This document shows, one piece after another, positions 21,979 to 27,182 of a stretch of 64,000 nt of DNA. The stretch is from Eledone cirrhosa. Lineage: Eukaryota. Where the stretch lies: NCBI GenBank assembly GCA_964016885.1, contig CAXHJY010001571.1, positions 62,001 to 126,000 of the forward strand. The letters are read 5' to 3'. The notes under the pieces are model-generated. The model did not search any database. It was not told the origin of the DNA and saw only the letters and a program-made list of their open reading frames with translations. How positions within the stretch are numbered: the stretch's first letter is position 1; every line of letters starts with the position of its first letter. The translations under genes and the position numbers were made by a program.

Positions 21979-22526
21979 TATATATAAATATATATATATA
22001 TATTATATATATATAAATATATATATATATATATATATATATATATATATATATATATATATATATACATATATAAATATATATATATATATATAAATAT
22101 ATATATATATATATATATATATATATAAATATAAATAGATATATATATATATATATTTATATATATATATAAATATATATATATATAAATATATATATAA
22201 ATATATATATATATAAATATATATATATATATTTATAAATATATATATATATATATATATATATATATATATATATATATATATATATATATTTATATAT
22301 ATATAGACATATTTATATATATATATAGATATATTTATATATATATATATAGATATATTTATATATATATATATAGATATATTTATATATATATATATAT
22401 ATTTATATATATATATATATTTATATATATATATATATTTATATATATATATATATATATTTATATATATATATATATATATTATATATATATATTTATA
22501 TATATATATTTATATATATATATATA

Positions 22527-25500
22527 TTGGAATAAATGCTCTGAAATAGCGATATATATGTGAATATAGACATAGAATATTCGAAAATATTCTGTATGTT
22601 TATAATAAACATTTTGAAGACCTAATCGCTATAGAATAGAATACGTCACGTATTACAATTAGATTCTCGATAAAAGCAAGGGAAGTAATCTACGCGTTTC
22701 ATTCTTGTTAGAAATCATCAGGACTACATATCCAGTGCTTTTATCGAGAATGACACAGCTAGAGACTTATAGAATACTTAGCTGTGTACAGGAACTGGTT
22801 TGAAAGAGCGGTTGCCGGTCCGGCAGAAATTAGAAATTGGAATAAATGCTCTGAAATAGCGATATATATGTGAATATAGACATAGAATATTCGAAAATAT
22901 TCTGTATGTTTATAATAAACATTTTGAAGACCTAATCGCTATAGAATAGAATACGTCACGTATTACAATTAGATTCTCGATAAAAGCAAGGGAAGTAATC
23001 TACGCGTTTCATTCTTGTTAGAAATCATCAGGACTACATATCCAGTGCTTTTATCGAGAATGACACAGCTAGAGACTTATAGAATACTTAGCTGTGTACA
23101 GGAACTGGTTTGAAAGAGCGGTTGCCGGTCCGGCAGAAATTAGAAATTGGAATAAATGCTCTGAAATAGCGATATATATGTGAATATAGACATAGAATAT
23201 TCGAAAATATTCTGTATGTTTATAATAAACATTTTGAAGACCTAATCGCTATAGAATAGAATACGTCACGTATTACAATTAGATTCTCGATAAAAGCAAG
23301 GGAAGTAATCTACGCGTTTCATTCTTGTTAGAAATCATCAGGACTACATATCCAGTGCTTTTATCGAGAATGACACAGCTAGAGACTTATAGAATACTTA
23401 GCTGTGTACAGGAACTGGTTTGAAAGAGCGGTTGCCGGTCCGGCAGAAATTAGAAATTGGAATAAATGCTCTGAAATAGCGATATATATGTGAATATAGA
23501 CATAGAATATTCGAAAATATTCTGTATGTTTATAATAAACATTTTGAAGACCTAATCGCTATAGAATAGAATACGTCACGTATTACAATTAGATTCTCGA
23601 TAAAAGCAAGGGAAGTAATCTACGCGTTTCATTCTTGTTAGAAATCATCAGGACTACATATCCAGTGCTTTTATCGAGAATGACACAGCTAGAGACTTAT
23701 AGAATACTTAGCTGTGTACAGGAACTGGTTTGAAAGAGCGGTTGCCGGTCCGGCAGAAATTAGAAATTGGAATAAATGCTCTGAAATAGCGATATATATG
23801 TGAATATAGACATAGAATATTCGAAAATATTCTGTATGTTTATAATAAACATTTTGAAGACCTAATCGCTATAGAATAGAATACGTCACGTATTACAATT
23901 AGATTCTCGATAAAAGCAAGGGAAGTAATCTACGCGTTTCATTCTTGTTAGAAATCATCAGGACTACATATCCAGTGCTTTTATCGAGAATGACACAGCT
24001 AGAGACTTATAGAATACTTAGCTGTGTACAGGAACTGGTTTGAAAGAGCGGTTGCCGGTCCGGCAGAAATTAGAAATTGGAATAAATGCTCTGAAATAGC
24101 GATATATATGTGAATATAGACATAGAATATTCGAAAATATTCTGTATGTTTATAATAAACATTTTGAAGACCTAATCGCTATAGAATAGAATACGTCACG
24201 TATTACAATTAGATTCTCGATAAAAGCAAGGGAAGTAATCTACGCGTTTCATTCTTGTTAGAAATCATCAGGACTACATATCCAGTGCTTTTATCGAGAA
24301 TGACACAGCTAGAGACTTATAGAATACTTAGCTGTGTACAGGAACTGGTTTGAAAGAGCGGTTGCCGGTCCGGCAGAAATTAGAAATTGGAATAAATGCT
24401 CTGAAATAGCGATATATATGTGAATATAGACATAGAATATTCGAAAATATTCTGTATGTTTATAATAAACATTTTGAAGACCTAATCGCTATAGAATAGA
24501 ATACGTCACGTATTACAATTAGATTCTCGATAAAAGCAAGGGAAGTAATCTACGCGTTTCATTCTTGTTAGAAATCATCAGGACTACATATCCAGTGCTT
24601 TTATCGAGAATGACACAGCTAGAGACTTATAGAATACTTAGCTGTGTACAGGAACTGGTTTGAAAGAGCGGTTGCCGGTCCGGCATATATATCGCTATTT
24701 CAGAGCATTTATTCCAATTTCTAATTTCTGCCGGACCGGCAACCGCTCTTTCAAACCAGTTCCTGTACACAGCTAAGTATTCTATAAGTCTCTAGCTGTG
24801 TCATTCTCGATAAAAGCACTGGATATGTAGTCCTGATGATTTCTAACAAGAATGAAACGCGTAGATTACTTCCCTTGCTTTTATCGAGAATCTAATTGTA
24901 ATACGTGACGTATTCTATTCTATAGCGATTAGGTCTTCAAAATGTTTATTATAAACATACAGAATATTTTCGAATATTCTATGTCTATATTCACATATAT
25001 ATCGCTATTTCAGAGCATTTATTCCAATTTCTAATTTCTGCCGGACCGGCAACCGCTCTTTCAAACCAGTTCCTGTACACAGCTAAGTATTCTATAAGTC
25101 TCTAGCTGTGTCATTCTCGATAAAAGCACTGAATATGTAGTCCTGATGATTTCTAACAAGAATGAAACGCGTAGATTACTTCCCTTGCTTTTATCGAGAA
25201 TCTAATTGTAATACGTGACGTATTCTATTCTATAGCGATTAGGTCTTCAAAATGTTTATTATAAACATACAGAATATTTTCGAATATTCTATGTCTATAT
25301 TCACATATATATCGCTATTTCAGAGCATTTATTCCAATTTCTAATTTCTGCCGGACCGGCAACCGCTCTTTCAAACCAGTTCCTGTACACAGCTAAGTAT
25401 TCTATAAGTCTCTAGCTGTGTCATTCTCGATAAAAGCACTGGATATGTAGTCCTGATGATTTCTAACAAGAATGAAACGCGTAGATTACTTCCCTTGCTT

Positions 25501-26577
25501 TTATCGAGAATCTAATTGTAATACGTGACGTATTCTATTCTATAGCGATTAGGTCTTCAAAATGTTTATTATAAACATACAGAATATTTTCGAATATTCT
25601 ATGTCTATATTCACATATATATCGCTATTTCAGAGCATTTATTCCAATTTCTAATTTCTGCCGGACCGGCAACCGCTCTTTCAAACCAGTTCCTGTACAC
25701 AGCTAAGTATTCTATAAGTCTCTAGCTGTGTCATTCTCGATAAAAGCACTGGATATGTAGTCCTGATGATTTCTAACAAGAATGAAACGCGTAGATTACT
25801 TCCCTTGCTTTTATCGAGAATCTAATTGTAATACGTGACGTATTCTATTCTATAGCGATTAGGTCTTCAAAATGTTTATTATAAACATACAGAATATTTT
25901 CGAATATTCTATGTCTATATTCACATATATATCGCTATTTCAGAGCATTTATTCCAATTTCTAATTTCTGCCGGACCGGCAACCGCTCTTTCAAACCAGT
26001 TCCTGTACACAGCTAAGTATTCTATAAGTCTCTAGCTGTGTCATTCTCGATAAAAGCACTGGATATGTAGTCCTGATGATTTCTAACAAGAATGAAACGC
26101 GTAGATTACTTCCCTTGCTTTTATCGAGAATCTAATTGTAATACGTGACGTATTCTATTCTATAGCGATTAGGTCTTCAAAATGTTTATTATAAACATAC
26201 AGAATATTTTCGAATATTCTATGTCTATATTCACATATATATCGCTATTTCAGAGCATTTATTCCAATTTCTAATTTCTGCCGGACCGGCAACCGCTCTT
26301 TCAAACCAGTTCCTGTACACAGCTAAGTATTCTATAAGTCTCTAGCTGTGTCATTCTCGATAAAAGCACTGGATATGTAGTCCTGATGATTTCTAACAAG
26401 AATGAAACGCGTAGATTACTTCCCTTGCTTTTATCGAGAATCTAATTGTAATACGTGACGTATTCTATTCTATAGCGATTAGGTCTTCAAAATGTTTATT
26501 ATAAACATACAGAATATTTTCGAATATTCTATGTCTATATTCACATATATATCGCTATTTCAGAGCATTTATTCCAA
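22527..26577. mobile_element. Retrozyme-like 310-bp HHR tandem array 2: about 7 minus units (22527-24685) then about 6.1 plus units (24686-26577)
   Basis: Period 310; 13 HHRs; right half is the reverse complement of 22527-24418; only one variant base noticed (25132). Confidence 0.92.
24827..24869 (+). ncRNA. Minimal type I hammerhead ribozyme (6 plus copies, 7 minus copies in the array)
   Basis: GTAGTC-CTGATGA-tTTCTaacaAGAAt-GAAA-CGCG-TA-GATTAC, enclosed by a 16-bp inverted repeat ATTCTCGATAAAAGCA/TGCTTTTATCGAGAAT. Confidence 0.92.
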
Positions 26578-27182
26578 TATATATAAATATATATATATAA
26601 ATATATATATATAATATATATATATATATATAAATATATATATATATATAAATATATATATATATATAAATATATATATATATATAAATATATATATATA
26701 TATAAATATATCTATATATATATATATAAATATATCTATATATATATATATAAATATATCTATATATATATATAAATATGTCTATATATATATAAATATA
26801 TATATATATATATATATATATATATATATATATATATATATACATATATATATATATATATATATATATATATATATATATATATATATATATATATATA
26901 TATACATATATATATATATATATATATATATATATATATATACATATATATAAATATATCTATATATATATATATAAATATATCTATATATATATATATA
27001 TATATATATATAAATATATATATATATATATAAATATATATATATATATATGCAAAAGTTTTATTTAAGATTGTTGGGTTACAACGAGTAAATATTTTAT
27101 AACTGATATAAAAGCACTCAACAGTTTCTGGAGTAGGTTTACAATATTAAACAAATGGAAACTATATTTATAAAACCATATT

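What the first reader, a model, noticed from the sequence alone, without database searches (positions are those of the whole stretch)
22290..26795. The palindrome continues about 230 bp into the flanking microsatellite: inverted target duplication
Seen: the pattern of interruptions in the left (TA)n tract (GACAT at 22306, three AGATATATTT, a series of TTT, one TT) is mirrored in the right tract (AA, series of AAA, three AAATATATCT, ATGTC at 26778), differing only in TA run lengths. Inference: fold-back synthesis ran past the priming site and copied host flank, giving an inverted rather than direct target duplication. This would be a mechanistic signature and a way these elements amplify their own (TA)n targets.
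Basis: partly seen in the sequence, partly recalled or inferred. Interest (0 to 1): 0.75.

Follow-up and report, generated by a model that had tools for sequence, protein, structure and literature searches.

The report
Retrozyme insertion with mirrored TA flank
In this animal genome assembly, one copy of a common ribozyme-bearing jumping repeat has about 220 bases of its right-hand TA microsatellite repeated backwards on its left side; none of the other copies checked shows this, so it is likely a rare copying accident rather than the way these elements normally insert.

Summary
The mirror is real in the assembly: 22292-22526 is the reverse complement of 26578-26796 over 12 TA runs, and its 36-nt signature occurs only twice in 3 Gb, both here. 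The array is a 310-bp hammerhead retrozyme in Penelope-style head-to-head arms. The right tract is the original and the left is the copy (interruption polarity). It is not a family signature. 0 of 89 other two-armed insertions have two tail ends or a mirrored TA tract, and 12 of 12 with interrupted tracts keep the same polarity on both sides. 0 of 254 listed tail ends form a convergent pair. Best reading: the left TA end annealed to the right flank's (TA)23 run and copied inward (0.42). An assembly artefact is not excluded (0.15), because reads could not settle it. Similar inverted flank copies are known for LINE-1 (0.3%). The scan already noted this family in this genome, and copied-back Penelope flanks in other genomes.

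The parts
22292..22526 (.). Inverted copy of the right flank (TT/GA-interrupted TA tract, 235 bp)
   Evidence: polarity opposite to both distal tracts
21979..22291 (.). Left distal TA tract, mostly AA-interrupted, ending in (TA)26 where the copy is joined; inferred left half of the original target
   Evidence: target role is inference
22527..24685 (-). Left arm: 6.97 copies of the 310-bp unit, starting at the tail end (unit position 1); 7 hammerhead cores; RNA sense on the minus strand
24684..24685 (.). Head-to-head junction with 2-nt overlap (unit position 299 to position 34); found once in the genome
24684..26577 (+). Right arm: 6.11 units, also ending at the tail end; 6 hammerhead cores; one private substitution at 25132; RNA sense on the plus strand
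24827..24870 (+). Minimal type I hammerhead motif of one unit: 6-bp stem I, CUGAUGA, stem II, GAAA, palindromic ACGCGU, GUA site
   Evidence: Rfam HH9 19.2 bits, below its cut-off of 52
26578..26796 (.). Original of the mirrored block (AA/TC-interrupted TA tract, 219 bp)
   Evidence: same AA(TA)2TC motif recurs further right in 26797-27051
26797..27051 (.). Right distal TA tract, starting with (TA)23, the first long pure run, where the mirror stops
11057..12656 (.). Second, ordinary insertion of the same family (about 1 + 4.2 units; one long end, one short end; flanks not mirrored): internal control

Best explanation
A 310-bp hammerhead retrozyme sits as two head-to-head arms in a TA microsatellite, and its left side carries an inverted copy of the right arm's tail end plus about 220 bases of right flank, likely made when the broken left TA end annealed to the long (TA)23 run of the right flank and was extended back towards the element. 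Shown: the mirror, its direction (right original, left copy), its stop at the first long TA run, and its rarity in the family. Inferred: a Penelope-type RT/GIY-YIG enzyme normally copies one RNA circle from both ends of a cut, starting at two sites 25-34 nt apart; the short start is an ATATATAT inside the unit. Here the left end used a much longer TA run in the DNA instead. (TA)n is its own reverse complement, so this pairing is possible. Synthesis then ran through the flank and on into unit position 1. It happened either during integration, continuing on the RNA (about half of this probability), or later, during repair of a break in the left TA run with the right arm as template (the other half). 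The shared core, a real local template switch through TA in either direction, has about 0.75.
For: Signature unique to this locus. Right block matches the polarity of both distal tracts, left block is opposite. The copy passes 12 runs of 4-10 units and ends at (TA)23/(TA)26. One event explains two rare features together: the second tail end (0 of 89) and the mirror. The left arm is 310 bp longer than a centre-out copy of the right arm could be, and outside-in copying needs no further step. The junction overlap of 2 nt is like ordinary insertions (21 of 49 have 1-5 nt). The right arm stops at unit position 34, next to the usual second start at 35, as in twin priming (PMC11702581 passages for L1). 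Both arms share one sequence variant in 55 of 58 elements versus 352 of 3,304 cross-element pairs. Two RT start sites, with both strands cut and extended, are shown in vitro for a Penelope-like protein (PMC11167929).
Against: It needs the top strand of the right flank as template, which ordinary 5' resection would remove (established knowledge); resection would favour centre-out copying. The junction lies in near-register (45-nt loop). Two duplicated copies of one insertion on C2 differ by exactly one unit (1,582 vs 1,892 bp), so the arm-length argument is weak. 7 of 49 ordinary insertions have near-equal arms versus 2.4 expected (p=0.007), which hints at fold-back in this family. No second clean example was found, no empty allele, and no read-level confirmation. 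The contig is a small one of 239,791 bp.
Confidence: 0.42

Rival explanations
1. One reading: the right-arm cDNA folded back on a 45-nt loop, was copied outward past its priming site and 219 nt into the flank, and rejoined the left end through TA. One unit was gained on the left or lost on the right afterwards.
For: Junction in near-register with a 2-nt overlap. Near-equal arms are in excess among ordinary insertions (7 of 49, p=0.007); the tail arm is the longer in 5 of those 7, as fold-back predicts. One-unit differences between duplicated copies occur (1 of 2 multi-unit pairs). Resection would expose the needed strand.
Against: Predicts a left arm of 1,849 bp; 2,159 bp is seen. In-register junctions modulo 310 are not enriched in the family (22 of 49 versus 19 expected within 60 nt). 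The copy would skip 12 TA runs as long as or longer than the internal (TA)4 where all 89 ordinary short arms end.
Confidence: 0.32
2. Assembly or library artefact: fold-back or chimeric reads joined through low-complexity TA on a small contig.
For: The contig is 239,791 bp in an assembly of 1,796 contigs. No example among 254 listed tail ends elsewhere. No listed read or contig piece spans the junction in four public runs (other or unknown individuals, and holes prove nothing). One duplicated insertion lies beside an N gap.
Against: The arms differ in unit number, by one substitution and in four TA run lengths, which a single folded molecule would not give. Both outer flanks are different sequence with matching polarity. 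No N in 134 kb of the contig read.
Confidence: 0.15
3. The empty site was already a TA palindrome, and the element inserted at its centre.
For: Local fold-backs around TA runs exist near insertions (L058, 12-13 nt). Two loci have ends of another family facing each other across the insertion (L123, L155).
Against: It does not explain the second tail end (0 of 89). Two independent rarities would have to coincide.
Confidence: 0.08
4. The interrupted tract is a tail carried in the element RNA from a donor locus (3' transduction) and was written into both arms.
For: RNA-sense 3' ends point outward in both arms, so a read-through tail would appear mirrored.
Against: No donor: the signature occurs only here. 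The same motif continues in the right distal tract. The flanks of other tail ends are unrelated.
Confidence: 0.02

Closest known systems
Animal non-LTR retrozymes (PMC7229834, passages; bioRxiv 10.64898/2026.07.22.740005, abstract, introduction and start of methods)
   Same: Non-coding tandem unit of about 300 bp, low GC, a type I hammerhead motif in each unit, proposed mobilisation by Penelope-like elements.
   Different: The parts read describe tandem arrays, not head-to-head arms with defined ends ('inverted' and 'target site' each occur 0 times in PMC7229834). No mirrored flank is described there.
Endonuclease-positive Penelope-like insertions with inverted pLTR and one-sided tail (PMC8557442 passages; PMC3846280 passages; PMC11167929 parts 1-2 of 4)
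   Same: Head-to-head inverted copy, a 30-40-bp tail at one end, two RT start sites, bias for (TA)n. The family here follows this in 89 of 89 complete two-armed insertions.
   Different: Known insertions have short direct duplications (8-10 bp) or none. This locus has the tail at both ends and an inverted 219-235-bp copy of one flank.
LINE-1 insertions with fold-back inverted duplication of target DNA (PMC10191854 section 11; PMC11702581 passages)
   Same: Rare (0.3% in that study), similar size (about 52-220 bp), attributed to extra DNA synthesis during resolution of the insertion.
   Different: There the duplication is described on the 5' upstream side of the target (text only; figure not seen). 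Here the opposite flank and the element's own tail are copied, with TA self-complementarity as the joint.

Membership tests
Animal non-LTR retrozyme | Short tandem unit of 150-450 bp, GC under 45% | tested here: met
   310-bp unit, GC about 35%
Animal non-LTR retrozyme | Type I hammerhead motif in every unit | tested here: met
   13 cores in the two arms; 792 of 859 cores from 96 of 100 loci keep all six stem I pairs. Rfam HH9 scores only 19.2 bits against a cut-off of 52, and the isolated motif folds no better than shuffles (z -0.23), so this rests on the motif.
Animal non-LTR retrozyme | No protein coding | tested here: met
   No stop-to-stop frame of 150 aa or more inside 22527-26577
Animal non-LTR retrozyme | Self-cleavage and circular RNA expression | not tested
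Penelope-type insertion structure | Head-to-head inverted arms in (TA)n | tested here: met
   Window array; 89 of 100 fetched loci are complete two-armed, 7 cut off or gapped, 4 one-armed
Penelope-type insertion structure | Tail of 30-40 bp at one end only | tested here: not met
   Met by the family (second arm starts at unit position 26-47 in 89 of 89), but this locus has the tail at both ends
Penelope-type insertion structure | Short direct target-site duplication | tested here: inconclusive
   Cannot be read in pure TA. The two runs next to the element sum to more than the tract's median run in 11 of 11 loci, which fits duplication or a preference for long runs.
Penelope-type insertion structure | Identified autonomous RT/GIY-YIG partner | tested here: inconclusive
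   A 765-aa frame at 16580-18874 (-) has Pfam GIY-YIG, E 1e-05; its RT part got no Pfam hit, and the unit shows no clear match next to it
LINE-1-type fold-back inverted target duplication | Inverted copy of target flank of about 52-220 bp | tested here: met
   219-235 bp
LINE-1-type fold-back inverted target duplication | Duplication on the 5' upstream side of the target | tested here: inconclusive
   Geometry differs as far as the text shows; figure not seen. L058 looks closer to that form.
LINE-1-type fold-back inverted target duplication | Shown against a matched empty allele or reads | not testable with these tools
   No related genomes are held; reads inconclusive

The most novel reading that the evidence does not exclude
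The locus is a frozen integration intermediate. A Penelope-type reverse transcriptase, primed by the left TA end on the right flank's long TA run, copied host DNA and ran straight onto the retrozyme RNA circle at the tail start site, making a second full cDNA arm. This would show that the enzyme crosses from DNA to RNA template at the tail boundary, and that the usual short end is simply TA priming on the ATATATAT inside the unit.
Probability: 0.2. Interest if true: 0.6.

Novelty: new variant of a known kind. Interest (0 to 1): 0.32.

Why it matters
How Penelope-like elements build inverted arms and one-sided tails is still open (PMC8557442 passages; PMC11167929). Exceptions with two tail ends and a copied flank can discriminate twin priming from fold-back if several are collected, because arm length and junction register differ between the models. 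One case cannot do this. As it stands it is a single rare scar of a kind known from LINE-1, and it adds almost nothing to the genome's TA content.

Tried and rejected
(1) The 53-bp GC-rich piece at 21926-21978 as part of the element: it also lies beside the second array, but no hit appeared in the upstream flanks of 28 other tail ends; rejected. (2) Donor-tail transduction: rejected. (3) L123 as a second mirrored case: a 41-nt mirror touches both edges, but the piece is the end of another family with 1,403 hits, and L155 shows the same pair at 89%; left undecided and not counted. (4) Same-strand close pairs of ends: three pairs read, all direct duplications of element plus flanks, not mirrors. 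(5) Empty allele or second haplotype: the right flank is itself a repeat (2,550 hits), so it could not anchor a search. (6) Reads: one search shows the family in four runs, no listed piece across the junction, and one unexplained depth of 34 at 24686 in one run; inconclusive. A tighter look at the junction gave no result. (7) DNA search with the unit returned nothing because common words are skipped; the pattern had one TA too many. (8) miRNA-family Rfam hits at the centre are hairpin matches below cut-off. (9) Papers: six searches listed no paper on inverted flank duplication at retrozyme or Penelope insertions; the phrase 'inverted target site duplication' had 0 occurrences in the 20 papers listed. 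PMC9977147 passages gave nothing relevant.

Full report
Observation. The window holds a left arm of 6.97 copies of a 310-bp unit (22527-24685) and an inverted right arm of 6.11 copies (24684-26577), between TA tracts. The 13 full or near-full units are identical except for one substitution at 25132. With TA runs collapsed, 22292-22526 equals the reverse complement of 26578-26796 over 47 interrupting letters. Of 12 enclosed runs, 8 are equal and 4 are longer on the left. The best of 5,886 cross-locus flank comparisons reached 16 letters of plain TT. The 36-nt signature occurs twice in 3.0 Gb, both here, and the central junction once.

What the array is. Each unit carries a minimal type I hammerhead motif, on the plus strand in the right arm and the minus strand in the left, so the RNA 3' ends point outward. 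Of 859 cores in 96 of 100 loci, 792 keep all six stem I pairs. Rfam HH9 matches weakly, below cut-off. There is no long reading frame in the arms. This fits animal non-LTR retrozymes (PMC7229834, passages; 10.64898/2026.07.22.740005, part 1 of 5). Cleavage and RNA were not tested.

The normal insertion. The junction of TA with unit position 1 occurs 1,121 times and the junction at position 35 occurs 811 times. I fetched the first 100 listed tail ends, all on contig C1. Of these, 89 were complete and two-armed, 7 were cut off or gapped (one by my off-centre fetch) and 4 were one-armed. In 89 of 89 the second arm starts at unit position 26-47, mostly 26 or 35, never at 1. This is the one-sided tail of Penelope-like elements (PMC8557442 and PMC3846280, passages), which in vitro matches two RT start sites, with both strands cut and extended (PMC11167929, parts 1-2 of 4). 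Both arms share one variant in 55 of 58 elements that could be scored, against 352 of 3,304 cross-element pairs, which suggests one RNA template per insertion. Earlier notes of this scan describe the same family in this genome; I checked the structure myself.

Is the mirror a signature? No. None of the 89 has a mirrored TA tract; the maximum was 4 matching letters outward from the edges. In 12 of 12 loci with interrupted tracts on both sides, the dominant interruption has the same polarity left and right; in the window it is TT against AA. Across four lists I read 254 distinct tail-end positions by eye. None forms a plus-then-minus pair within 20 kb, which gives an upper bound near 1.2% per end. 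The subfamily lists only detect pairs whose two ends both match exactly, and most positions are on the three largest contigs. BLAST of flank against flank flagged a few inverted matches near both edges. The best, L123 (41 nt), is the end of another family with 1,403 hits and stays undecided. The second array in the window is an ordinary insertion.

Which side is the copy. The right proximal block has AA/TC interruptions like the right distal tract, which repeats the same AA(TA)2TC motif, and like the mostly AA left distal tract. The left proximal block alone is TT/GA. So the left block is the copy. It passes 12 runs of 4-10 units and ends at the first long pure run, (TA)23 on the right, joined to (TA)26 on the left. 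One copying event explains both the second tail end and the mirror (inference), which makes a pre-existing palindrome unlikely. The absence of a donor rules out a transduced tail almost fully.

Direction of copying. Outside-in: the left end's 3' TA pairs with the right (TA)23, because TA is self-complementary, and extension gives the reverse complement of 26796 to 26578 and then unit position 1. It can continue on RNA at integration or on the right arm in later repair, with arms of any length. For one search, 50 of 52 then-complete elements were parsed; L033 was dropped as misparsed and L073 as too short, and one with a 16-nt overlap was set aside. For outside-in: no extra step is needed, the 2-nt overlap is ordinary (21 of 49), and the right arm stops at position 34, next to the second start site, as L1 twin priming does (PMC11702581, passages). 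For centre-out: the junction is near register, near-equal arms are in excess (7 of 49, 2.4 expected, p=0.007), resection would expose the right strand, and two duplicated copies of one insertion differ by exactly one unit. Register modulo 310 is not enriched (22 of 49 against 19). I commit to outside-in at 0.42, against 0.32; one locus cannot separate them.

Artefact. The contig is 239,791 bp. Public runs hold the family, but no listed piece spans the junction; they may be other individuals. A tighter query gave no result. The unit-number, substitution and run-length differences argue against one folded read. I leave 0.15.

TA amplification. The mirror adds about 235 bp at about 1% or fewer of about 1,100 insertions, a few kb in all. 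Runs of six or more TA units make up 8.4% of the window and 8.6% of 149 kb of flanks, a TA-biased sample. Ordinary insertions have more TA at their two edges than the tract's median run in 11 of 11 loci; whether that is added TA or a preference for long runs was not tested.

Known and new. Inverted copies of target DNA of about 52-220 bp occur at 0.3% of somatic L1 insertions (PMC10191854, section 11), and local inversions and templated insertions are described in PMC11702581 (passages). Six searches listed no such report for retrozymes or Penelope-like elements; supplements and figures were not seen. The scan's own notes report copied-back Penelope flanks in other genomes (unchecked). Verdict: a real feature of the assembly, probably a real rare event, a new variant of a known kind, interest 0.32.

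Noticed in passing
window 49905-57949: Head-to-head palindrome of a broken Penelope-like element (RT motif YRDDG and a GIY-YIG-like end read from the frames), arms 95-98% alike; the right arm is interrupted by a SINE-like insert near 55665-55910 and is about 80 bp longer at its outer end.
   Followed up: partly
window 16580-18874 (-): Open 765-aa frame with a Pfam GIY-YIG hit (E 1e-05), an RT-like YLDD motif and a CxxxxCxxC motif before the nuclease; a possibly intact Penelope-like ORF. 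The Neptune-like label is recalled, not tested.
   Followed up: partly
window 27052-29815: Repeated element of about 2.7 kb with 306-bp terminal inverted repeats, flanked by TA; many 95-99% copies genome-wide.
   Followed up: partly
window 4023-4114, 7097-7102, 19385, 19959, 20586, 49821: Further hammerhead-like cores of other families, several as small hairpins in TA tracts.
   Followed up: no
window 19145-19616 and 20345-20817: Direct duplication of about 474 bp at 96%, including TA tracts and a hammerhead-like core.
   Followed up: no
L058 (G000:C1:66901618-66910618), short end: 12-13 nt of flank repeated in inverted form across (TA)12 next to the element: a small local fold-back. 2 of 189 ends were flagged (the other a CA/TG repeat), versus 4 of 625 background runs.
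   Followed up: partly
L148 (G000:C1:243768730-243777730): The element plus about 100 bp of each flank has CA polarity inside a TG-interrupted tract, as if inverted as a block between TA runs.
   Followed up: no
L123 and L155: Ends of another abundant family face each other on both sides of the insertion (41 nt identical in L123, 89% in L155).
   Followed up: partly
L161-L164: Three direct duplications of element plus flanks 2-5 kb apart; the pair on C2 differs by one unit and the stretch holds an N gap.
   Followed up: partly
window 60593-64000: 21-bp tandem array with extreme G/T strand bias, running off the window.
   Followed up: no
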